Shown: positions 17,280 to 26,425, numbered from the stretch's first letter. The stretch is DNA of 32,000 nucleotides from Cupriavidus necator (GCF_016127575.1 NZ_CP066019.1:2880555-2912554); one strand, 5' to 3'. Notes: generated by a model from the letters alone, not told the origin. A program made the numbers and translations.

Positions 17280-18566
17280 TTACTCCAGCAGGGTGCGCGG
17301 ATCGGTAATGCGGCCGGTGACGGCGCTGGCGGCCACGGTCATCGGCGAGCCCAGCCACACCGCGCTGCCGGCATCGCCCATGCGCCCGGAGAAGTTGCGC
17401 GCCGTCGACGCAATCGCGCGGCTGCCCGCCGGGAAGCGCGCCGCGCCATAGCCGGCGCAGGCGCCGCAGGCGTTGGGCAGCAGCGTGGCGCCGGCGTCGG
17501 TCAGGATGCCAAGCGTGCCCTCCTGCTCGGCCAGCAGCTGGTCGCGGCGCGAGGCCGGCGCCACCTGCAGGGTCACGCCCGCTGCCACGCGGCGCCTGCG
17601 CAGCACGCGCGCGGCCATGCGCAGGTCTTCCAGCTTGGCGCCAGTGCAGGCACCCAGGTAGGCGATCTGCACGGGCTCGCCGGCGGCCTGGTCTACCGGC
17701 GCGCTGTTGGCCGGAGAGTGCGGCGCCGCCACCTGCGGCACCAGTGCCGCGGCGTCGAAGCGGTGTGTGGCCAGCACCGGTGCATCGGGGTCCGTGCGCC
17801 AGTGGGCCAGGTCGATTGCGGCCAGCGTCTGCGCCGGCACGCCGGCCTCGGCCAGCCAGCCGAGCGTGACCGCGTCGGGCGCCACCAGGCCGGTCTGCGC
17901 GCCCAGCTCGGCGCTCATGTTGGCCAGCGTCATGCGCTCCTGCATCGGCAGCGCGGCGACGGCGCTGCCGGTGTACTCCAGCGCCTCATAGCGGCCGCCG
18001 CCCATGCCGAGCGTCGCGCACAGGAACAGCATCATGTCCTTGGCGCAGACGCCCGCTGCAAGCTGGCCGTCCCATTGCAGCCGGATGGTATTGGGCACGC
18101 GCAGCCAGATCTCGCCGGTGGCCAGCACGCCGGCCATCTCAGTCGCGCCCACGCCGAACATATAGGCGCCGAAGGCACCGCCGGTGGGGCTGTGGCTGTC
18201 GCCGCCGACAATCAGGCGGCCCGGCAGCACATGGCCGCGCTCGGGCAGCACCACATGGCAGATGCCTTCGGCGTCGATGAAGTGGGCGCCGGACTGGCGC
18301 GTCCAGTCGCGCGTGAAGCGCAGGATCGACTCGGCCTGGGCATCGCCGCCCGGCACGAAATGGTCGGTCACCACCACATAGCGCGACGGGTCCCAGACCC
18401 CGGTGCCAAGCTCTTCCAACAGCGGCGCCACGCGGCGCGGGCCGCTGGAGTCGTGCGACATCGCCAGGTCGACCCGGCAGATCACCACCGTGCCGATCTC
18501 CGCATGCGCCAGCCCGGCGGCGCGCGCAACCAGTTTCTGCGCCAGCGTGGCGGGAGTATGGCTCAT
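17280..18566 (-). CDS. Aconitase-family dehydratase large subunit (LeuC-like)
   Basis: 428 aa counted from ATG 18566 (MSHTPATLAQKLV...). Fe-S cysteine contexts YLGACTGAK and PNACGACAGYG are present. The start overlaps the stop of the upstream Bug receptor gene. Confidence 0.85.
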   Translation of the reverse strand: MSHTPATLAQKLVARAAGLAHAEIGTVVICRVDLAMSHDSSGPRRVAPLLEELGTGVWDPSRYVVVTDHFVPGGDAQAESILRFTRDWTRQSGAHFIDAEGICHVVLPERGHVLPGRLIVGGDSHSPTGGAFGAYMFGVGATEMAGVLATGEIWLRVPNTIRLQWDGQLAAGVCAKDMMLFLCATLGMGGGRYEALEYTGSAVAALPMQERMTLANMSAELGAQTGLVAPDAVTLGWLAEAGVPAQTLAAIDLAHWRTDPDAPVLATHRFDAAALVPQVAAPHSPANSAPVDQAAGEPVQIAYLGACTGAKLEDLRMAARVLRRRRVAAGVTLQVAPASRRDQLLAEQEGTLGILTDAGATLLPNACGACAGYGAARFPAGSRAIASTARNFSGRMGDAGSAVWLGSPMTVAASAVTGRITDPRTLLE

Positions 18567-19603
18567 TCCGGCGAGGCTCCCGAATACTTGACCACGGCGG
18601 CCCAGCGCCTGACGTCCTGCTTCACGAAGGCGGCGAAGGCGTCGGGCGGCGTGCCCATCGGCTGCGCCCCGTCGTTCTCCAGGCGCTTGCGCACCGCGGG
18701 CGTTTCCAGCCCCTTGCGCGCGGCCTGGTACAGCGCCTGCGTGACTTCGTGCGGCATGCCGGCCGGACCGAACAGGCCGAACCACGCGCTCGATTCAAAG
18801 CCCTTCACGGTGGCGCCGATCGGCGCCGCGCCCGGGAACTGCGGCAGGGCCGCGGGGCTGGTCACGCCCAGCACCTTGAGCTTGCCCGCGCGCACATGCG
18901 GCAGCACGTTGATGGTGCTGGCGAACATCAGGTCGCACTGGCCCGCCAGCACGTCGGTGAGCGCGGGCGAGGTGCCCTTGTACGGAATGTTGACGATATA
19001 GGTGCCGGTCATCATCTTGAACATGTCGCCGGCCATATGCAGCGACGACCCCACCGAGCCGATGGCAAAGTTCAGCTTGCCCGGTTCGGAACGCGCCAGG
19101 CGGATCAGCTCGGGCACATTGCTGGCCGCCAGCTTAGGCGTGGCCACCAGCACGCTCGGCACGGTGGCCACCAGCGTGATCGGGGTGAAGTCCTGCACCG
19201 GGTCGAACGGCAGCTTCTTGTACAGGGTGGCGTTGATGGTGTGGCTGGTGAAGCTCATCAGCAGCGTGCTGCCGTCCGGCGCGCTTTTGGCGACCAGGTC
19301 GGCGGCGATATTGCCGCCGGCGCCGGGGCGGTTCTCGACCACCACCGGCTGGCCGAGCTCCTGGGACATTTCCTGGGCGATGGTGCGCGCCAGCGTGTCG
19401 GTGGTGCCGCCGGCGGGCGCGCCCACCAGGATCCGGATCGGCTTGCCGCCGGCCACCTGGGGTTGCCCCTGGGCCGCGGCGGACAGCGGCAGGGCCAGCG
19501 CGCACACGGCCAGGCTGGCCATGGCCAGGCGCTGCACCGCGGCGCGGCGGGGGATCGAAGGCAGACGGGTCGGGCTGGACGGGACCAGGCAGAACACGGG
19601 CAT
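18563..19603 (-). CDS. Bug-family (TctC-like) tripartite tricarboxylate transporter periplasmic receptor
   Basis: Signal peptide ...LAVCALALPLSAAAQG, then KPIRILVGAPAGGTTDTLARTIAQEM...VVENRPGAGGNIAADLVAKSAPDGSTLL, typical of Bug proteins. The start is ATG 19603 with a GAGGAG SD. Confidence 0.85.
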   Translation of the reverse strand: MPVFCLVPSSPTRLPSIPRRAAVQRLAMASLAVCALALPLSAAAQGQPQVAGGKPIRILVGAPAGGTTDTLARTIAQEMSQELGQPVVVENRPGAGGNIAADLVAKSAPDGSTLLMSFTSHTINATLYKKLPFDPVQDFTPITLVATVPSVLVATPKLAASNVPELIRLARSEPGKLNFAIGSVGSSLHMAGDMFKMMTGTYIVNIPYKGTSPALTDVLAGQCDLMFASTINVLPHVRAGKLKVLGVTSPAALPQFPGAAPIGATVKGFESSAWFGLFGPAGMPHEVTQALYQAARKGLETPAVRKRLENDGAQPMGTPPDAFAAFVKQDVRRWAAVVKYSGASPE

Positions 19604-19713
19604 GGCGACGGCTCCTCGCTTGATGTGATCAGAGATGCGCAGTATCGCCCGGAACGTTACGTGGCGCATCCCTGGCTGCGCCGCCTGCGGGAAGTCGGCG
19701 GCGGTCCGCGGGG

Positions 19714-20499
19714 TCAGTCGCGCAGGCCCGGGCGGGTTTCGCTTTCCACCCAGACGTTGGCGCTGTCGACGCCGGCCGGCGACAACTCCATGCGGTATTC
19801 ATAGCGGTCCGGGCGGTACTGGCCGAGCAGCAACTGGACCGGGCGCCCGGCCGCGTCCTTGACCACGCGGCGCACCGCCAGCAGCGCGCCGCCTACCGGC
19901 ACGTCCAGCAGCGGCGCCACCACCACGTCGGCCAGGCGCGCGGACAGCACCTGGCTGGCACGGCCCAGCTTCACGCCGCCGGCCTCCAGCAGCCGCAGCA
20001 CCGGCCGCTCTTCCAGGGACTGGCGCGTGATCGGCCGGCCCAGGTCGGCGGGCAGGTAGACCGTGATATGCGACAGCGGCCGGTTGCGGTAGTGGCGCAC
20101 GCGCACGATCTTCACCACCGGATCGCCCGGCTCGATCTGCAGCGATTCGGCCACATCGGGCGTGGCATGGACTTCGTCGATCGAGATCACCTTCACCGAC
20201 GTCTTCTGGCCCATGTCGATGATGTTGTCGAGCAGGCTGGTGCCGCGTTCCTCGCCGGCCGCCGTCGCCGGGCGCACCGGATGCGGGTTGACGAAGGTGC
20301 CAAGCCCGCGGTGGCGGCGCACCAGGCCTTCTTGCACCAGGCGGTCGAACACGCGCCGCATGGTCACGCGCGAGGCGTGGAACTGCTTGGCCAGGTCGAT
20401 CTCGCCCGGCAAGGGGCCCTGGCCGAAGCGGCCTTCCACGATCTGCTGGCGCAATACCACGTAAATCTGGTGATACAGGGGAACGACGGCTTCACTCAT
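19714..20499 (-). CDS. GntR-family (HutC/UTRA-type) transcriptional regulator
   Basis: wHTH LPGEIDLAKQFHASRVTMRRVFDRLVQEGLVRRHRGLGTFV followed by a UTRA-like C-terminal domain. It is the first gene of the minus-strand module. Confidence 0.85.
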   Translation of the reverse strand: MSEAVVPLYHQIYVVLRQQIVEGRFGQGPLPGEIDLAKQFHASRVTMRRVFDRLVQEGLVRRHRGLGTFVNPHPVRPATAAGEERGTSLLDNIIDMGQKTSVKVISIDEVHATPDVAESLQIEPGDPVVKIVRVRHYRNRPLSHITVYLPADLGRPITRQSLEERPVLRLLEAGGVKLGRASQVLSARLADVVVAPLLDVPVGGALLAVRRVVKDAAGRPVQLLLGQYRPDRYEYRMELSPAGVDSANVWVESETRPGLRD

Positions 20500-21089: not shown

Positions 21090-21104
21090 TGGCACCGATT
21101 ATGC
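21090..21104 (+). promoter_or_regulatory. Candidate sigma-54 (-24/-12) promoter
   Basis: TGGCAC-cgatt-ATGC compared with the consensus TGGCAC-N5-TTGC. The GG/GC spacing is correct and there is one mismatch in the -12 box. It sits about 120 bp upstream of ATG 21224. No enhancer-binding protein gene is visible in the window. Confidence 0.3.
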
Positions 21105-21223
21105 GCAAGGGGAGTCTGGTTTGGCTGGGTGCCGGACCTGAACCTCCAGCCGTCGTTCCTCGCAAGAGCGCCGGCCGGAGGCTGAGCCGCTGTGACACTG
21201 TGCAATTCTCCTGGGAGCTTCGT

Positions 21224-22738
21224 ATGAAAAAGACCTTACTGGCGTCGGCTATCGCCATGGCATTTGCGGGACAGGCCTGGGCAAATCCGACCAATAACAA
21301 CGACGTGGTAAGAGGTGGCGGCGACAACACGCAAACCGCCACAGCGACCTCGACGCAGAGTGGCAGCGGCGCGGCGGCAAACGAATATTCGACCGCAGTC
21401 CAGGCCAATGACAGCAGCACCAACACCAGAACCACCACGGTTGGCGTCAACAAGACCAAGACCACGACCAACTCGAACAACAGGAGCAGGATCGACTTTG
21501 ACCATGGCGTAGGCAACGCGGGCTCCAACGGTGGCAGCGCAACCTCCAGCGTAAGCAACGCCTTCAACACCAGCAAGGCACTGGCGATCAGCAAGCTGAA
21601 TGGCACGGTTTCCAACAACAGCATTGGCCCGATCGGCAATTACGCCACCAACTGGGGTAACGCGAATGGTGCAGCCGGTGGCCGGGGCGGCAATGGCTTT
21701 GGCGGTACCGGCGAAGGCGGGCGCGGCGGCAACGGCGGCAACGGCGGTAACGGCGGCAGCGGCGGCTCCGGTGGCAGCGCTACCAACGGTAGCGCCACCA
21801 ATGGCGACGCCACCAACGGCAGCGCCAACGCTGGTAATGGCGGTGCCGGCGGCAAGGCGATTGGCTGGGCCGGCAGTGGCGGTGACGGCAAGGCATATGG
21901 CGGCAGCGCACTCTCCGCAGCGGGCAGCAAGGGCGGCAGCGGCGGCGATGCTTATGGCAAGGGCGGCGGCGCTCTGAGCGCATCGCTCGGCGCCGGCGGC
22001 CGCGGCGGCAGTGCCGGCGCGATCGGCGGTGGTGGCCTGGGTGCCAGCGGCGCCCTGGGCGGCTTGGCAGGTTCGGCCGGCGGCTCAGGTGGTAGCAGCG
22101 GCAATGCCAACGGTGCGGGTGGCGACACTACCACTGGCGGCGCAGGCGGCGCAGGCGGCGCAGCGGCCGGTACCAACACGGCTGGCGCAGGCACCGGTTC
22201 GGGCGGCGCAGGTACCGCGAGTGGCGGTGCGGGCGGTGCCGGAACGGCAGCTGCAGGCGCGACCGGCGGAGCCGGCAGCGGCACCGGCGGTGCCGGTGGC
22301 GCGGGCGGCGCGGCGACCTCGACCGCAACGGCGGGCGCGGCAAGCGGCACCGGCGGCGCGGGCGGCACGCAAGCCAGCGTTGGCGGCGCGGGCGGTACTG
22401 GCGGTTCGGCCACGAACGGCAGCGCAACGAGTTCGGCCTCCAATGGCAGCTCCACGGCTGGCAACGGTGCGGTGGGTGCTACCGGCGGCGCGGGCGGCGC
22501 GGGCGGCACTGGCAATGGCGGCACTGGCGGCACCGGCAACGGCGCAGTCGGCGGCGCTGGCGGTAATGGCGGTTACAACATTGTTGACGCGGGCACCTTC
22601 AATATGTCCAACACCATGACCAGCGTTGGTCAAACGGCGGCGGGCATCATGATGGCCAACCAGAACAGCGGCGCTGCCTCGCTCGTGCAGCAAAGCGTGA
22701 ACGTTCAGGCCAACCTGCAGGTCGGCGGCAACCGGTAA
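21224..22738 (+). CDS. Secreted 504-aa glycine-rich (GGAGG/GGN, PGRS-like) protein; putative major cargo or fibre subunit of the C39/barrel operon
   Basis: GGGAG SD and signal peptide MKKTLLASAIAMAFAGQAWA. The order of regions is DVVRGG, a T/N/S-rich segment, about 306 aa of Gly/Ala/Ser/Thr/Asn low complexity (nt 21656-22573), and a C-terminal Q/N module ...TAAGIMMANQNSGAASLVQQSVNVQANL. The mature part has no Cys. Confidence 0.8.
   Translation: MKKTLLASAIAMAFAGQAWANPTNNNDVVRGGGDNTQTATATSTQSGSGAAANEYSTAVQANDSSTNTRTTTVGVNKTKTTTNSNNRSRIDFDHGVGNAGSNGGSATSSVSNAFNTSKALAISKLNGTVSNNSIGPIGNYATNWGNANGAAGGRGGNGFGGTGEGGRGGNGGNGGNGGSGGSGGSATNGSATNGDATNGSANAGNGGAGGKAIGWAGSGGDGKAYGGSALSAAGSKGGSGGDAYGKGGGALSASLGAGGRGGSAGAIGGGGLGASGALGGLAGSAGGSGGSSGNANGAGGDTTTGGAGGAGGAAAGTNTAGAGTGSGGAGTASGGAGGAGTAAAGATGGAGSGTGGAGGAGGAATSTATAGAASGTGGAGGTQASVGGAGGTGGSATNGSATSSASNGSSTAGNGAVGATGGAGGAGGTGNGGTGGTGNGAVGGAGGNGGYNIVDAGTFNMSNTMTSVGQTAAGIMMANQNSGAASLVQQSVNVQANLQVGGNR
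21725..21838 (+). repeat. In-frame tandem repeats inside the glycine-rich gene: 9-bp units (GGC GGC AAC/AGC) x6, then 15-bp units (GCC ACC AAC GGC AGC) x4
   Basis: Read directly. Positions 21725-21778 encode GGN GGN GGN GGS GGS GGS. Positions 21779-21838 encode ATNGS ATNGD ATNGS ANAGN. Confidence 0.85.
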
Positions 22739-22751
22739 GGCGTGCAGCCAC

Positions 22752-22784
22752 GGTCTGGCCCGGGACTTGTGCCCGGGCCAGACC
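22752..22784 (+). terminator. Perfect 13-bp GC-rich hairpin 14 nt after the stop of the glycine-rich gene (attenuator or terminator candidate)
   Basis: GGTCTGGCCCGGG-acttgtg-CCCGGGCCAGACC. No U-tract follows. Confidence 0.45.
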
Positions 22785-22805
22785 GGCAGCTCGCACTCAT
22801 GCCGG

Positions 22806-22848
22806 CAGGACCGGCGCCCGCATCCTGTGTGCGGGCGCGCGGGTCCTG
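22806..22848 (+). terminator. Second compound hairpin (7 + 9 bp) in the same intergenic gap
   Basis: CAGGACC g GCGCCCGCA-tcctgtg-TGCGGGCGC gcg GGTCCTG. The loop shares YTGTG with the first hairpin. No U-tract follows. Confidence 0.35.
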
Positions 22849-22923
22849 TCATGCCCCAAGCAAGCCTGATTGCCTTGCAGCCGTCCGGATGGGGGCGGCC
22901 GGCAGGCAAGGGGAGACGACATC

Positions 22924-23358
22924 ATGCAATCGGTCCGCTTCGCCGTCGGCGCATTCGCGACGGTCTTACTCGCCTGGCCAGTGCTGCAGGCGCACGCTGA
23001 GCCGCCAGGGCTGGACGCCGCCATGGCAGCGGCGCGCGCTGCTTCTGGCGCTGCCCCGGACACGGCTGCAATCACCGCACAGCCGACGGCCGCAACTTCC
23101 TTGTTCGGAGGGGTGGCGAAAGCCGTACCCGTGTCTAAACTGGATGACATCCGTGGCGGCGCCGAGGTCACGGTCAACGATATGCGCCTGCACGGTACCG
23201 TGGCCGACAACGCCGCGGTCAATATTCTGTCCGGCACCAACAACATCGCGGACGGGGCCTTCTCGAATGCGGCAGGGATTCCCACCGCGATCCAGAACTC
23301 GGGCTCCAACGTACTGATCCAGAACGCCACTATCGTCAACGTCCAGTTCAAGCAATGA
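22924..23358 (+). CDS. Secreted 144-aa protein with internal double-glycine motif and C-terminal Q/N module (putative minor subunit or nucleator)
   Basis: GGGGAG SD and signal peptide MQSVRFAVGAFATVLLAWPVLQAHA. An Ala/Pro-rich pro-region ends in VSKLDDIRGG. The C-terminal 65 aa end in ...NAAGIPTAIQNSGSNVLIQNATIVNVQFKQ. The stop overlaps the next ATG (ATGA at 23355-23358). Confidence 0.75.
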   Translation: MQSVRFAVGAFATVLLAWPVLQAHAEPPGLDAAMAAARAASGAAPDTAAITAQPTAATSLFGGVAKAVPVSKLDDIRGGAEVTVNDMRLHGTVADNAAVNILSGTNNIADGAFSNAAGIPTAIQNSGSNVLIQNATIVNVQFKQ

Positions 23359-24053
23359 AGCCGCTGCGAAACCTGTTGGCGTCTGTACCGTTCTTGCTGG
23401 CCGCGGGGGGCGTTCCATGTGCCCAGGCTGCCGACACCCTGATATACGGGCCGGTCGGCGAGTCCTACAACGTCCGGGTCACGAGCGTGCGCGAGGCTCG
23501 CTTCAAGTCCACGATCCGGCAGCAGTTCGACTTCAGCTGCGGCTCGGCCGCGGTGGCCACGCTGCTGAGCTACCAGTACGGCCATCCGATGAATGAGGCC
23601 ACGGTCTTCCAGAACATGTACCTCAACGGCGACCAGCAGAAGATCCGCGCCGAGGGGTTCTCGCTGCTCGACATGAAGCGCTTCCTGGCCGCGCTCGGCT
23701 ATGAGGCGGACGGCTACGAGCTGCCACTGTCCAAGCTGGAAGAGACGCAGGTGCCGGCCATCGTGCTGATCGTGGAGAACGGTTACCACCATTTCGTGGT
23801 GGTCAAGGGCGTGAAGGGCGACCGCGTGCTGATCGGCGATCCCGCACGCGGCACGCGCGCGATGTCACGCGAGCATTTCGAGCAGATCTGGGACAGCCAG
23901 CTGCTGTTCGTGATCCATAACCGCACCGAACGGGCGCGGTTCAACCTTGCAGCCGACTGGCGCGTTGCGCCGAGCGGTCCTTACTGGATGGGAGTCAACC
24001 GGGATAGCTTGTTCTTCACCGTCATGCCCAAGCATGGCGCGGGCGATTTTTGA
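23355..24053 (+). CDS. Periplasmic stand-alone C39-family cysteine peptidase (FapD-like)
   Basis: Signal peptide MKPLRNLLASVPFLLAAGGVPCAQA. Gln56 and Cys62 sit in RQQFDFSCGSAAVATLL (Q six residues before C). His146 sits in GYHHFVVVKG and Asp162 in LIGDP (His-to-Asp spacing of 16). This is the canonical C39 catalytic arrangement. Confidence 0.85.
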   Translation: MKPLRNLLASVPFLLAAGGVPCAQAADTLIYGPVGESYNVRVTSVREARFKSTIRQQFDFSCGSAAVATLLSYQYGHPMNEATVFQNMYLNGDQQKIRAEGFSLLDMKRFLAALGYEADGYELPLSKLEETQVPAIVLIVENGYHHFVVVKGVKGDRVLIGDPARGTRAMSREHFEQIWDSQLLFVIHNRTERARFNLAADWRVAPSGPYWMGVNRDSLFFTVMPKHGAGDF

Positions 24054-24063
24054 GGAACGCATC

Positions 24064-24909
24064 ATGTTGCAGACTTCCTTCCCGACCCCAGCAGCCCCTC
24101 GCAGCGCCGGTCATGCGGCCGCGGCGATGCTGCTCGGGGCCGGTTTGGCCTGTGCCGGCACGGCGCAGGCCACCATGCTGCCACAGCCCGACGCCCTCGA
24201 CGCGTCGGCGCTTCCATTGCAGGGGGCCATGCCCTCGAGCGACGGGCAGGACCAAAACCCTCTGGCTGCCGCACGCGGCAGCATGGCCGGCTGGAAACCG
24301 GTAGCACACGAAAAACTCGACGACATGCGGGGCGGCTTCGAAGTGCCGGGCCTGCAGGTTTCGTTCGGTATCGAACGCGCGGTGTACATCAACGGGGCCC
24401 TGGTGGTTGCCACCAGCATTAACATCCCCGATGTCAGCCGTATCACCGCCGACCAGGCTGCGCGGCTTGCCTCGACGCTGGGCCCGGCCATCGTTGCCAG
24501 CACCAATGCGGCGGTCGCCAACGCGCTGGCGGCGGCGGGCGCGGCCGGTTCGGATGGGAGCGCCACCTCGGCGGCCAATGGCGCCTCGGCCAGCAGCACC
24601 GGCACGTCCGGGGCCGGTTCGGGCGCCAGCGGTGCGGCGGGCTTGCCGGCGGCGGTGGTGAATACGGCCACCGGTCAGGTCGTGAGCAATGGGCTGTTGA
24701 ACGTGATCCAGAACGGCCCGGGCAATGCGGCATCGGTGGGATCGCTGGCGGGGACGCCAACGACCGTGATCCAGAACACCTTGAACAACCAGAGCATCCG
24801 GAGCCTGATGACAATCGACGCAAGCGTAAATACGCTGCAGGCATTCCGGTCGCAGTTGGCCAACACCACGCTGAACAACGCGCTGATGCGGGCCGCAAGC
24901 ATGAGGTAG
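24064..24909 (+). CDS. Secreted 281-aa protein with internal double-glycine motif, beta-rich core, G/A/S linker and degenerate Q/N module (FapE-position protein)
   Basis: GAGGAA SD and signal peptide ...AAAAMLLGAGLACAGTAQA. The pro-region ends in HEKLDDMRGG. It continues with FEVPGLQVSFGIERAVYINGALVVATSINIP, a Gly/Ala/Ser stretch, and then LLNVIQNGPGN...SLAGTPTTVIQNTLNNQ. Confidence 0.75.
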   Translation: MLQTSFPTPAAPRSAGHAAAAMLLGAGLACAGTAQATMLPQPDALDASALPLQGAMPSSDGQDQNPLAAARGSMAGWKPVAHEKLDDMRGGFEVPGLQVSFGIERAVYINGALVVATSINIPDVSRITADQAARLASTLGPAIVASTNAAVANALAAAGAAGSDGSATSAANGASASSTGTSGAGSGASGAAGLPAAVVNTATGQVVSNGLLNVIQNGPGNAASVGSLAGTPTTVIQNTLNNQSIRSLMTIDASVNTLQAFRSQLANTTLNNALMRAASMR

Positions 24910-24985: not shown

Positions 24986-26425
24986 ATGAAGAAGCGGTCG
25001 ATGCAGGGCATTCGCAATGCGGGATGCTCGACGTTACTGTTGCTCGGCGGCCTGGCGCAGGCCCAGACGCCGCCGGATGCGGGACCACCCGCAGCCGGAC
25101 TGGAAGCACTGCAGAAGGAGCTTGCCGAACAGGCCACCCAGCTCGACGCCATGAAGCGGGCGCTGGCCGAACAGGAGGCGCTGATCCGCGAACTGCGTAA
25201 CGTGATCGGCACCGAGGTGCTGGCCAACAAGCGCGGCGGCCAGCGCGCGGGGCCAGGCGTGTCGCCGTCCGACAATGCCACCAACGCCGCTACCGCGGCG
25301 GCCGCTGCCAGCGCCACCCAGTCAGCGCCCAACGCGGTCAACAACCCGCAGCAGATCATTCTCCAGCCACCGCAGGACATGGCCCAGGGTCCGCAGGCGG
25401 GCGAGTCCGCCGACCGGCAGACCGTGGCCCTGGAAGAACCCGTGGGCCGCCCGCCGGAGGAAGACCGCCGTCCGCCTGAGATCGCGCCGATCATCGACCA
25501 GCCCGGCGTGCTGACCGCCCAGGGCAAGCTGGTGATCGAGCCCGGCTTCCAGTACGGCTATTCGTCCAATAACCGCGTCGCGCTGGTCGGCTACACGGTC
25601 ATCCCGGCCATCCTGATCGGCCTGGTCGATGTGCGCGAAGTCAAGACCTCGACCTACATCCCGTCGGTAGCGTTTCGCTACGGCCTGACCAAGCGGCTGG
25701 AAATCGAAGCCAAGGTGCCTTACGTGCACTCATCGGGCCAGACAGTCAGCCGCGAGGTCTTCACCGGCACGGCCGTCGACCGCGTGTTCAATGCGAGCGG
25801 CAGCGGTATCGGCGACGTCGAGGCGACGGTGCGCTACCAGCTCAACTACGGCAACGAGAAGATTCCGTACTTCGTCGGCTGGCTGCGCTACAAGTCCAAT
25901 ACCGGCACCGACCCGTTCGAGGTCGTGACCGACTGCGTGACGCGCTGCGTGGGCAATGCCACCGGCACCGGCCTGCCGCTCGGGTTGCCCACCGGCACCG
26001 GCTTCCAGGCGATCCAGCCCGGCATCACCTGGCTGCTGCCGACTGACCCGGCGGTGTTCTTCGGCACCTTCAGCTACCTGCACAACTTTGCGCGCGACAA
26101 CGTGAGCCGCACCGTGCTGAACGGCGAGAAGGAGAATCTCGGCAAGATCGCCCCCGGCGACATCTTCGAGTTCAGCTTCGGCATGGGCCTGTCGCTCAAT
26201 GAGAAGGCGTCGTTCAGCATCGGCTATGACCAGGCCATCATCTGGCCGACCAAGCAGAACGGCCAGACCGTGCCGGGCTCGGTGCGCGTGACCCAGGGCA
26301 CCTTGCTGGTGGGCTATTCGTACCGCTTCAACAACCGCTACACGGTGAACCTTTCAGTGGGTGCGGGGCTGACGCGCGACACCCCCGACCTGCAGGTGAA
26401 CCTGCGCCTGCCAATCACTTTCTGA
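24986..26425 (+). CDS. Outer-membrane beta-barrel with N-terminal coiled coil and disordered linker (FapF-like; MetA/phenol-degradation-type barrel fold family)
   Basis: GGAGGAAG SD and a signal peptide ending LAQA. A clean 5-heptad a/d pattern runs L39 L42 L46 Q49 L53 M56 L60 Q63 I67 L70 I74 (nt 25100-25207). It is followed by about 90 aa of A/P/Q/N-rich linker, then alternating beta-strand sequence ending ...VNLRLPITF with a terminal Phe. Confidence 0.8.
   Translation: MKKRSMQGIRNAGCSTLLLLGGLAQAQTPPDAGPPAAGLEALQKELAEQATQLDAMKRALAEQEALIRELRNVIGTEVLANKRGGQRAGPGVSPSDNATNAATAAAAASATQSAPNAVNNPQQIILQPPQDMAQGPQAGESADRQTVALEEPVGRPPEEDRRPPEIAPIIDQPGVLTAQGKLVIEPGFQYGYSSNNRVALVGYTVIPAILIGLVDVREVKTSTYIPSVAFRYGLTKRLEIEAKVPYVHSSGQTVSREVFTGTAVDRVFNASGSGIGDVEATVRYQLNYGNEKIPYFVGWLRYKSNTGTDPFEVVTDCVTRCVGNATGTGLPLGLPTGTGFQAIQPGITWLLPTDPAVFFGTFSYLHNFARDNVSRTVLNGEKENLGKIAPGDIFEFSFGMGLSLNEKASFSIGYDQAIIWPTKQNGQTVPGSVRVTQGTLLVGYSYRFNNRYTVNLSVGAGLTRDTPDLQVNLRLPITF

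What the first reader, a model, noticed from the sequence alone, without database searches (positions are those of the whole stretch)
22574..24792. Shared C-terminal AAGI-x2-A-x-QNSG-x3-L-x-Q module; protein A looks like a B-type module split by the glycine domain
The C-terminus of A (TAAGIMMANQNSGAASLVQQSVNVQAN) and of B (NAAGIPTAIQNSGSNVLIQNATIVNVQFK) align without gaps over AAGI..A.QNSG...L.Q and end in NVQ. D carries a degenerate copy (SLAGTPTTVIQNTLNNQ) plus an extra LLNVIQNGPGN. In addition, residues 117-150 of A (SKALAISKLNGTVSNNSIGPIGNYATNWGNANGAAG) parallel B (AKAVPVSKL...HGTVADNAAVNILSGTNNIADGAFSNAAG). The glycine-rich region therefore begins exactly where B has its AAG motif, and A returns to AAGI...QNSG about 320 residues later. 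This suggests that A arose from a B-like subunit by expansion at the AAG core. It also suggests the Q/N module is the common recognition or polymerisation element, in the Q/N-rich style of amyloid repeats such as the curli and Fap repeats.
Basis: seen in the sequence. Interest (0 to 1): 0.65.

Follow-up and report, generated by a model that had tools for sequence, protein, structure and literature searches.

The report
Shared amyloid-type module in Fap-like operon
Three secreted proteins of a five-gene Cupriavidus operon really do share a conserved Gln/Asn-rich module that looks like one repeat of the Pseudomonas Fap amyloid, so this is a widespread, unstudied cousin of the Fap fibre system in which the protease cleavage site is unusually easy to read.

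Summary
The C-terminal modules of A and B are homologous: profile-profile E 2e-5, and 0 of 200 column permutations reach the real score. The B module also matches an internal module of D (E 1e-4, 0 of 200). A and D are linked only through B.

With its glycine core removed, A aligns colinearly with B from KAVPVSKL to the C-terminus (E 2e-5 to 2e-6). A is therefore a B-like unit split by a Gly-rich insert of variable length. A also lacks B's RGG site.

The surrounding genes explain the module. The peptidase is FapD-like and the barrel is FapF-like. D is a remote FapE homologue, and the B module resembles FapB repeat 2. B and D carry a canonical double-glycine leader (L-7, hydrophobic -4/-12/-15, R-G-G).

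A-B-C39-D-barrel is conserved in 36 of 37 Cupriavidus genomes and in Ralstonia, Rhodoferax, Massilia, Duganella and others. The B family has at least 1265 clusters at 50% identity, no Pfam family, and no published study that I could find.

Most likely the module is the cross-beta assembly unit of a divergent Fap-type fibre. This is a new variant of a known kind. Amyloid formation and cleavage are inferred, not shown.

The parts
21090..21105 (+). sigma-54-type -24/-12 promoter element TGGCACCGATTATGCG, about 120 nt upstream of gene A
   Evidence: Pattern match in the window. The same element sits at -120 to -133 from the A start codon in 18 of 18 Cupriavidus orthologous loci. A sigma-54 activator gene lies next to the operon in Rhodoferax, Massilia and Duganella loci.
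21224..22738 (+). Gene A: 504-aa Sec-exported protein. Order of regions: T/N/S-rich N-terminus, B-like N-part, Gly-rich core, C-terminal module.
   Evidence: ORF and translation. Orthologues found in every locus examined.
21572..21679 (+). A N-part (aa 117-152, SKALAISKLNGTVSNN...GNANGAAG). It corresponds to B's KAVPVSKL...HGTVADNAAVN but lacks the RGG site.
   Evidence: hhalign E 0.007, 0 of 200 permutations. Colinear alignment of the spliced A with B.
21680..22573 (+). A glycine-rich insert: 298 aa, of which 133 Gly, 61 Ala, 31 Ser, 27 Thr. Its length varies between species.
   Evidence: Composition. Tandem DNA arrays of 9-27 nt. The linker ranges from about 60 aa (L131) to over 500 aa in other genera.
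22574..22735 (+). A C-terminal module (YNIVDAGTF NMSNTMTSVGQ TAAGIMMANQNSGAASLVQQSVNVQANLQVGGNR)
22924..23358 (+). Gene B: 144-aa precursor made of Sec signal, variable pro-region, double-glycine site and a 65-aa conserved mature part.
23131..23160 (+). B double-glycine site VSKLDDIRGG (L-7, I-4, R-3, G-2, G-1)
   Evidence: RGG is present in 139 of 145 B representatives. Position profile.
23233..23355 (+). B module GTNNIADGAFSNAAGIPTAIQNSGSNVLIQNATIVNVQFKQ (Fap-repeat-like)
   Evidence: [IVL]QN[ST]G is present in 145 of 145 representatives.
23355..24053 (+). Periplasmic C39 cysteine peptidase (FapD/FilB-like). Catalytic Cys in DFSCG; His and Asp present.
   Evidence: Pfam PF03412 E 9e-25. NCBIfam FapD E 7e-43 and FilB E 1e-39, both below their cut-offs. 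Sequence.
24064..24909 (+). Gene D: 281-aa FapE-like protein, annotated 'flagellin' in public records.
24307..24336 (+). D double-glycine site HEKLDDMRGG (followed by an invariant F)
   Evidence: BLASTP of B vs D, E 2e-5. Profile. Tandem copies in some orthologues.
24673..24804 (+). D internal module GQVVSNGLLNVIQNGPGNAASVGSLAGTPTTVIQNTLNNQSIRS, colinear with B 91-134
   Evidence: hhalign E 9.8e-5, 0 of 200 permutations. AF2 predicts strands here at pLDDT 70-80.
24805..24906 (+). D C-terminal extension ending ...ALMRAASMR. It matches the FapE C-terminus ...ALAAIASMRR and is a predicted helix.
24986..26425 (+). Outer-membrane barrel with N-terminal coiled coil (FapF-like)
   Evidence: NCBIfam FapF E 9e-42, below its cut-off. 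Sequence.

Best explanation
The locus encodes a divergent Fap-type (FapD peptidase plus FapF barrel) fibre secretion system. The module shared by A, B and D is a single Fap-type Gln/Asn-rich cross-beta repeat. It is the part that lets the three secreted proteins stack on one another.

Proposed course of events:
1. All five proteins cross the inner membrane by Sec (signal peptides seen).
2. In the periplasm the C39 peptidase removes the variable pro-regions of B and D at a canonical double-glycine site (L-7, hydrophobic -4/-12/-15, R-G-G). This is inferred. It releases a 65-aa mature B and a mature D that begins with an invariant Phe.
3. The unfolded subunits leave through the trimeric FapF-like barrel (by homology).
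4. Outside the cell, FapE-like D presents its internal module as a template. B adds to it as a FapB-like nucleator or minor subunit. A, which has no cleavage site, contributes its N-part and C-terminal module as one B-like rung. Its variable glycine-rich insert is left exposed, as the variable linkers of FapC are.

Shown here: the homologies, their conservation, and the co-occurrence of the genes. Inferred: cleavage, secretion route, order of assembly, and amyloid character.
For: Module homology survives composition-preserving controls.

Context:
- The C39 protein matches FapD at E 7e-43 and the barrel matches FapF at E 9e-42.
- The barrel has a coiled coil, a linker and then the barrel, as FapF does (PMC5557850).
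- D aligns with FapE from the (K/E)PVxxxxLxxxRG(G/K)(F/Y) motif to the ...ASMR C-terminus. The score is 36-40 against a permutation mean of 14.8 (sd 2.5), 0 of 150.
- B's module aligns ungapped with FapB repeat 2 (NIADGAFSNAAGIPTAIQNSGSNVLIQNATIV against QIGGGAFAGASGLIAANVASGNGNLQSNAAVL). E is 0.007 to 0.0016, 0 of 150 in two kinds of permutation.

Architecture parallels published Fap biology:
- FapC is made of repeats separated by highly variable linkers, and FapB in Vibrio has a single repeat (PMC3792158).
- FapE's C-terminal part carries N/Q-rich repeat-like sequence and its N-terminal ~70 residues are removed (PMC5557850).

Gene co-occurrence in 80 loci that carry B: C39 in 80, D in 79, barrel in 76 (the rest are cut contigs). 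The A C-terminal HMM hits 71. Of the other 9, the 7 examined have A by inspection, and 2 are cut upstream of B.

The leader profile matches the double-glycine pattern.

AF2 treats monomeric B as disordered apart from three short strands on the module. It predicts strands on D's module. Both fit a subunit that folds on assembly.

The last 33 residues of B carry no charge (sequence).
Against: - A, B and D get no hit to the NCBIfam FapB, FapC or FapE models even at E<=10, whereas the canonical Fap proteins of Cupriavidus do. Homology to Fap subunits therefore rests on weak profile-profile scores (hhalign probabilities 6-35%).
- The D-FapE score is partly compositional. With 15-column block permutation, 11 of 150 reach it.
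- B has one repeat-like unit, not three, and no significant internal repeat.
- There is no FapA gene.
- No structure model reached useful confidence (pLDDT 49 and 59), and there are no fold or PDB matches.
- The module's near-invariance across genera exceeds that reported for Fap repeats. This could point to a recognition role instead.
- There is no experimental or transcript evidence.
Confidence: 0.6

Rival explanations
1. The shared module is mainly an export or recognition signal. It would be read by the FapF-like barrel, its periplasmic coiled coil, or the peptidase acting as a chaperone. It would mark A, B and D as cargo rather than forming the fibre core.
For: The module is terminal or near-terminal in A and B. 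It is far more conserved than the rest of the proteins: VIQNSGxNVLIQNATI is about 90-100% conserved in 146 representatives. Its strict co-occurrence with the barrel and peptidase would fit a machine-cargo interface. The Fap export signal is unknown (PMC5557850).
Against: In D the module is internal and followed by a 34-aa helical extension. The published suggestion for a Fap targeting sequence is the removed N-terminus of FapE (PMC5557850), and here B and D have a separate conserved N-terminal leader. The module resembles the Fap repeat that forms the fibril core.
Confidence: 0.15
2. The operon builds a non-amyloid surface fibre or pilus, like the uncharacterised Acinetobacter Fil system. The module would then be a subunit-subunit interface of another kind, for example strand complementation, and the resemblance to Fap repeats would be only distant ancestry.
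For: The peptidase scores almost as well against FilB (E 1e-39) as against FapD, and the barrel also hits FilC (E 6e-10). FapD/FilB-like standalone peptidases occur in 38 of 301 sampled genomes of the class with varied neighbours. A, B and D fail the Fap subunit models.
Against: The Fil-like locus examined (L147) has different cargo: 280-350-aa paralogues with a ...TGQ(A/D)G motif and no Q/N module. D retains the FapE end motifs. B's module aligns with a Fap repeat.
Confidence: 0.15
3. B is a secreted bacteriocin- or microcin-like peptide, released from a double-glycine leader by the C39 peptidase. Its similarity to A and D would then be incidental to that role.
For: A canonical double-glycine leader pattern next to a C39 peptidase, and a 65-aa uncharged-tailed mature peptide.
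Against: There is no ABC transporter or immunity gene in the operon. A Sec signal precedes the leader. B is a core gene present in 36 of 37 genomes of the genus. Its mature sequence is extremely conserved across genera, unlike fast-diversifying bacteriocins. It is always linked to A, D and a FapF-like barrel.
Confidence: 0.04
4. The similarity is a by-product of low-complexity Q/N/A/G composition and has no common origin or function.
For: A against D directly is not significant. Whole-protein HMM searches are noisy because of compositional bias.
Against: Column-permutation and local-shuffle controls are exceeded in every A-B and B-D test. The alignment is colinear over about 70 columns. The motifs are conserved position by position across genera. 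In the 7.4-Mb genome the B profile hits only B and D.
Confidence: 0.02

Closest known systems
Pseudomonas Fap functional amyloid system (fapABCDEF: FapB/FapC/FapE subunits, FapD C39 peptidase, FapF trimeric barrel)
   Same: Both have a Sec-dependent periplasmic C39 peptidase with catalytic Cys and His, and a barrel with an N-terminal coiled coil. Both have three secreted N/Q-rich proteins that share a repeat. The large subunit carries a variable linker, as FapC does. D matches FapE at both ends. The gene order peptidase, FapE-like, barrel is the same.
   Different: A, B and D do not match the FapB, FapC or FapE models. B has one repeat-like unit in place of three. B and D carry a long variable pro-region ending in a canonical L-x3-R-G-G site, whereas canonical FapE has RG(K/R)(Y/F) there and FapB and FapC are reported as unprocessed (PMC5557850). 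A's linker is a Gly-rich domain that splits a single unit rather than separating repeats. There is no FapA. Three of the sampled Cupriavidus genomes carry a canonical fap operon as well, so this is a paralogous system.
Double-glycine leader peptides cleaved by C39 peptidase domains (class II bacteriocins, lanthipeptides, PCAT transporters)
   Same: GG at -2/-1, Leu at -7 (100%), and hydrophobic residues at -4, -12 and -15/-16. A C39 peptidase is encoded next to the substrates.
   Different: The leader lies after a Sec signal and a variable spacer instead of at the N-terminus. The peptidase is a free periplasmic protein instead of a domain of an ABC exporter. The products look like fibre subunits.
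Acinetobacter Fil putative pilus system (FilB peptidase, FilC barrel; NCBIfam NF050078/NF050079)
   Same: A standalone C39 peptidase plus a FapF-related barrel next to several secreted paralogues.
   Different: Scores are far below the Fil cut-offs (136 against 475 bits; 39 against 630 bits). The cargo of the Fil-like locus examined has other motifs and no Q/N module. My search found no paper on Fil.
Curli (CsgA/CsgB)
   Same: Q/N-rich imperfect repeats, and a nucleator-plus-major-subunit logic.
   Different: There are no CsgG/E/F-type genes, no sequence relation was detected, and the secretion machinery is different. The resemblance is one of style only.

Membership tests
Fap functional amyloid system | Periplasmic FapD-type C39 peptidase with catalytic Cys/His | tested here: met
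   PF03412 E 9e-25. NF058616 E 7e-43 (146 bits, below the equivalog cut-off of 330). A signal peptide, DFSCG, HHF and GDP motifs are present.
Fap functional amyloid system | FapF-type outer-membrane barrel with N-terminal coiled coil | tested here: met
   NF058560 E 9e-42 over profile positions 65-420 (143 bits, below the cut-off of 700). A heptad helix at aa 38-75 precedes a low-complexity linker.
Fap functional amyloid system | FapB/FapC subunits with three Fap repeats (GN-x-G-N-x2-AG-x2-NQQ-x-N) | tested here: not met
   A and B have no hit to NF058557 or NF058558 at E<=10, whereas canonical Cupriavidus FapB and FapC hit at E 8e-15 and 5e-28. Only one repeat-like unit aligns (hhalign E 0.002-0.007).
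Fap functional amyloid system | FapE subunit | tested here: inconclusive
   D has no hit to NF058559. hhalign of D against FapE gives E 4e-4 over 208 colinear columns with shared N- and C-terminal motifs. 0 of 150 global permutations reach the score, but 11 of 150 block permutations do.
Fap functional amyloid system | Fibrils with amyloid properties (ThT binding, formic-acid-only solubility, cross-beta) | not testable with these tools
   This needs protein work. The AF2 monomers are of low confidence.
Double-glycine leader / C39 substrates | GG (or GA/GS) at -2/-1 with hydrophobic residues at -4, -7, -12, -15 | tested here: met
   B (n=140) and D (n=42): L-7 100%; hydrophobic at -4 in 66-69%, at -12 in 79-98%, at -15/-16 in 72-95%. 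Not met for A, whose N-terminal RGGG is not conserved in orthologues.
Double-glycine leader / C39 substrates | N-terminal leader without Sec signal, exported by a peptidase-containing ABC transporter | tested here: not met
   Sec signals precede the leaders. The peptidase has no ABC or transmembrane domains, and there is no ABC gene in the operon.
Acinetobacter Fil system | FilB and FilC above the NCBIfam cut-offs | tested here: not met
   136.6 bits against a cut-off of 475, and 39 bits against 630.
Flagellin (public annotation of D) | Flagellin N- and C-terminal domains | tested here: not met
   D has no Pfam or NCBIfam hit at all. The name 'flagellin' appears in NCBI records of D homologues.

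The most novel reading that the evidence does not exclude
This is a distinct, widespread family of 'split-rung' fibres. A 65-aa peptide (mature B) is released in the periplasm at a textbook double-glycine site by a free C39 peptidase. It co-assembles on a FapE-like anchor (D) with a subunit (A) whose two half-modules close into one B-like cross-beta rung. A's insert, a glycine-rich and silk-like loop of 60 to more than 500 residues, is displayed on the fibre surface. If so, the system would give the first readable substrate code for FapD-type peptidases and a new way of decorating an amyloid core.
Probability: 0.25. Interest if true: 0.75.

Novelty: new variant of a known kind. Interest (0 to 1): 0.6.

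Why it matters
The substrate of FapD has been an open question since 2017. [quoted passage not shown] In this paralogous system two cargo proteins carry an unmistakable double-glycine leader. The homologous position in canonical FapE reads RG(K/R)(Y/F). Cleavage, its role in export, and the order of assembly therefore become directly testable.

It has no Pfam family. Its partner D is mis-annotated as flagellin. The system occurs in Cupriavidus and in Ralstonia, including opportunists such as R. pickettii and R. mannitolilytica and the plant pathogen R. syzygii, where a matrix fibre could matter for biofilms.

The split-module architecture of A shows how a short amyloid-type unit can carry a long, expansion-prone glycine-rich insert.

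Tried and rejected
- Pfam and NCBIfam scans of A, B and D gave nothing, even at E<=10.
- Whole-protein HMMER searches between the families were dominated by low-complexity bias and were uninformative for A as a target. I switched to module-only profiles with permutation controls.
- A test for an internal repeat in mature B (half 1 against half 2) was not significant, 22 of 120.
- The A C-terminus against FapB or FapC directly was not significant (E 0.14-0.67).
- AF2 of B (pLDDT 49) and D (pLDDT 58.6, pTM 0.35) gave no confident fold. Foldseek against the PDB gave nothing below E 2. PDB sequence searches were empty.
- Block permutation for D against FapE gave unstable scores with outliers up to 148, so that link is rated inconclusive.
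- The literature search for the Fil system found no paper. A search for Cupriavidus with Fap found only a database paper.
- The FapF family search in 14 control genomes found nothing, so canonical Fap proteins were taken from paralogous loci in relatives instead.
- The bacteriocin reading and the chance low-complexity reading were both considered and rejected (see rivals).

Full report
**Anatomy.** The + strand of the window carries five consecutive genes.
- A, 21224-22738: 504 aa with a Sec signal. A 298-aa core holds 133 Gly.
- B, 22924-23358: 144 aa.
- A C39 peptidase, 23355-24053.
- D, 24064-24909: 281 aa.
- An outer-membrane barrel, 24986-26425.

All five have signal peptides. Every quoted peptide is at the stated residue numbers.

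**Is the similarity more than composition?**

Pairwise BLASTP:
- A against B gives 15/26 identities over AAGI...NVQ (E 0.005).
- A against D gives nothing.

I took the whole operon from 18 other genomes of the genus and aligned each family.

Profile-profile comparison:

| Comparison | Result |
|---|---|
| A C-terminus vs mature B | E 2.3e-5 |
| Mature B vs D C-terminus | E 9.8e-5, 44 columns |
| A vs D | E 0.17 |

Shuffling the columns of one profile 200 times keeps composition and conservation but destroys order. It gave means of 10-12 (sd about 2.4) against real scores of 28.4 and 27.9, and none reached them. For A against D, 61 of 200 did.

An HMM of the A module scored real B proteins (median 13.7 bits) above all 1900 B sequences shuffled within 30-residue windows.

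In the whole 7.4-Mb genome the B profile hits only B and D. The A-B and B-D similarities are real, and A-D is linked only through B.

**Is A a split B?**

The A N-part (KAxAVSKLxGTVSGN...) matches B's KAVPVSKLDD at E 0.007, 0 of 200 permutations.

I removed the glycine core and joined 36 residues of the N-part to the last 52 residues. The spliced A then aligns colinearly with B from KAVPVSKL to the C-terminus over 69-72 columns (E 1.8e-5, P 78%). Against a 146-sequence B profile the result is E 1.6e-6, P 90%.

- The insert maps to B's ...NILSG|TNNIADGAF. A resumes with G(Y/T)NxVDAGTF, equivalent to GTNNIADGAF. This is about 10 residues before B's AAG.
- The AAG at A150 is not conserved in orthologues (GNANGG[TA]G).
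- A has a further 10-residue insert (NMSNTMTSVGQ) inside the module. A lacks the segment of B that contains RGG (5 or 16 residues, depending on the alignment).

The glycine region is encoded by short tandem DNA arrays of 9-27 nt. Its length ranges from about 60 to over 500 residues between genera. It behaves as an expansion-prone linker.

A and B are distinct families wherever the operon occurs. The split is therefore ancient, and its direction cannot be read from these data.

**What the surroundings say.**
- The peptidase matches NCBIfam FapD (E 7e-43) and FilB (E 1e-39).
- The barrel matches FapF (E 9e-42).
- All of these are below the equivalog cut-offs.
- The barrel has the FapF layout of coiled coil, linker and barrel (PMC5557850).
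- Some relatives also carry a second locus with a distant FapF-like barrel. Three of these second loci were read. They are canonical fapABCDEF operons.
- The canonical subunits do hit the NCBIfam FapB, FapC and FapE models (E 8e-15, 5e-28, 2e-16). A, B and D hit none at E<=10.

The present operon is therefore a paralogous, divergent system, not the fap operon itself.

**Remote homology to the Fap subunits.**
- D aligns with FapE over 208 colinear columns (E 4e-4). The alignment runs from KPVAHEKLDDMRGGF / EPVADDELAGARGKY to ...ALMRAASMR / ...ALAAIASMRR.
- That score is 36-40 against 14.8 (sd 2.5) for global permutations, 0 of 150. It is reached by 11 of 150 block permutations, so it is partly compositional.
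- B's module aligns ungapped with FapB repeat 2 (E 0.007; E 0.0016 with the broad profile; 0 of 150 in both kinds of permutation).

This fits published Fap biology:
- Repeats form the core and variable linkers are exposed.
- Vibrio FapB has a single repeat (PMC3792158).
- FapE has repeat-like N/Q sequence in its C-terminal part (PMC5557850).

**A second shared element.**
- B and D share ...KLDDxRGG (BLASTP E 2e-5).
- In 140 B representatives and 42 D sequences, Leu at -7 is invariant. Positions -4, -12 and -15/-16 are hydrophobic in 66-98%. To my knowledge this is the pattern of double-glycine leaders cleaved by C39 peptidases.
- Upstream of the site the sequence is variable in length and content. 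Downstream it is strongly conserved.
- Some D orthologues carry two or three tandem copies of the site.
- A's N-terminal RGGG is not conserved.
- Canonical FapE has RG(K/R)(Y/F) at the equivalent place.
- FapD's substrate is still unknown. Only FapE shows N-terminal processing (PMC5557850, PMC6173800).

**Spread.**
- The barrel, with the operon, is present in 36 of 37 genomes of the genus. Source names identify the genus as Cupriavidus.
- The B profile finds 1265 clusters at 50% identity (908 at E<=1e-10) among 1.84 billion representatives.
The best 80 are in Cupriavidus, Ralstonia, Rhodoferax, Pseudoduganella, Duganella, Massilia, a Burkholderia sp. and a gammaproteobacterial MAG.
- In those 80 loci C39 is present in 80, D in 79 and the barrel in 76. 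The misses are cut contigs.
- The A module HMM hits 71. Of the remaining 9, the 7 inspected have an A-type gene. The other 2 are cut just upstream of B.
- Metagenome contigs show the same A-B-C39-D order.
- B homologues are 'hypothetical' with no Pfam family. D homologues are mostly named 'flagellin', and no domain search supports that name.

**Structure.**
- AF2 gives B a pLDDT of 49, with only three short strands, all on the module.
- D reaches 58.6. It has a hairpin at 99-121, strands on the module (197-255, pLDDT 70-80) and a C-terminal helix.
- There are no fold or PDB matches.

This is compatible with subunits that fold on assembly, but it is not evidence for that.

**Conclusion.** The module is real, conserved and specific to this operon. 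It most likely represents one Fap-type cross-beta repeat used for co-assembly of a FapE-like anchor (D), a small processed subunit (B) and a large linker-bearing subunit (A). Confidence is 0.6.

Rivals:

| Rival reading | Confidence |
|---|---|
| Export or recognition signal | 0.15 |
| Non-amyloid Fil-like fibre interface | 0.15 |
| Bacteriocin-like peptide | 0.04 |
| Chance | 0.02 |

It is a new variant of a known kind, and it is worth bench work because it makes the FapD-substrate question testable.

Noticed in passing
window 21090-21105 (+): A sigma-54-type promoter element, TGGCACCGATTATGCG, lies about 120 nt upstream of gene A. It is conserved at -120 to -133 in 18 of 18 Cupriavidus orthologous loci. 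In Rhodoferax, Massilia, Duganella and a gammaproteobacterial MAG a sigma-54 enhancer-binding activator gene sits directly upstream of A.
   Followed up: partly
L042 and L047 (D orthologues in relatives G029 and G023): Some D proteins carry two or three tandem copies of the W-K-P-V-x-x-E-x-L-x-x-x-R-G-G-F leader motif, separated by low-complexity spacers. This suggests duplication of the processing site or stepwise trimming.
   Followed up: no
L052, L053, L054 (relatives G027, G029, G001): Three Cupriavidus genomes also carry a canonical fapABCDEF operon. Canonical FapE there, and in two other orders (L056, L149), has RG(K/R)(Y/F) exactly where D has RGGF. This is a candidate FapD cleavage site in true Fap systems.
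   Followed up: partly
window 24064-24909 and public homologues: D homologues are widely annotated 'flagellin' in NCBI and UniRef records, although no flagellin domain is detectable. This is probably a propagated mis-annotation.
   Followed up: partly
L112, L131, L133 (Rhodoferax and Burkholderiales MAG loci): In some genera the FapF-like barrel gene is not downstream of D. It lies upstream on the opposite strand, beyond the sigma-54 activator. In L057/L058 (metagenome) no barrel is adjacent at all.
   Followed up: no
L147 (G068:C27, Fil-like locus): A FilB-like peptidase (310 bits) and a FilC-like barrel lie next to four paralogous 280-350-aa secreted proteins. Their signal peptides are followed by M-x-A-(L/M)-x-D-x-x-(L/M)-x-x-A-T-G-Q-(A/D)-G. 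This may be a different leader code for the same kind of peptidase.
   Followed up: no
window 21305-21330 (A aa 28-36): A's N-terminal DVVRGGG looks like the B/D site, but it is not conserved in A orthologues (KEVEGGGS, DKVWDGD, TDGWSHQ and others). A is probably not processed there.
   Followed up: yes
window 18563-19669 (-) and 19714-20499 (-): Upstream neighbours of the operon are a Bug-family (tripartite tricarboxylate transporter) periplasmic binding protein and a GntR-type regulator. They are separated from gene A by an intergenic region of about 720 nt.
   Followed up: no
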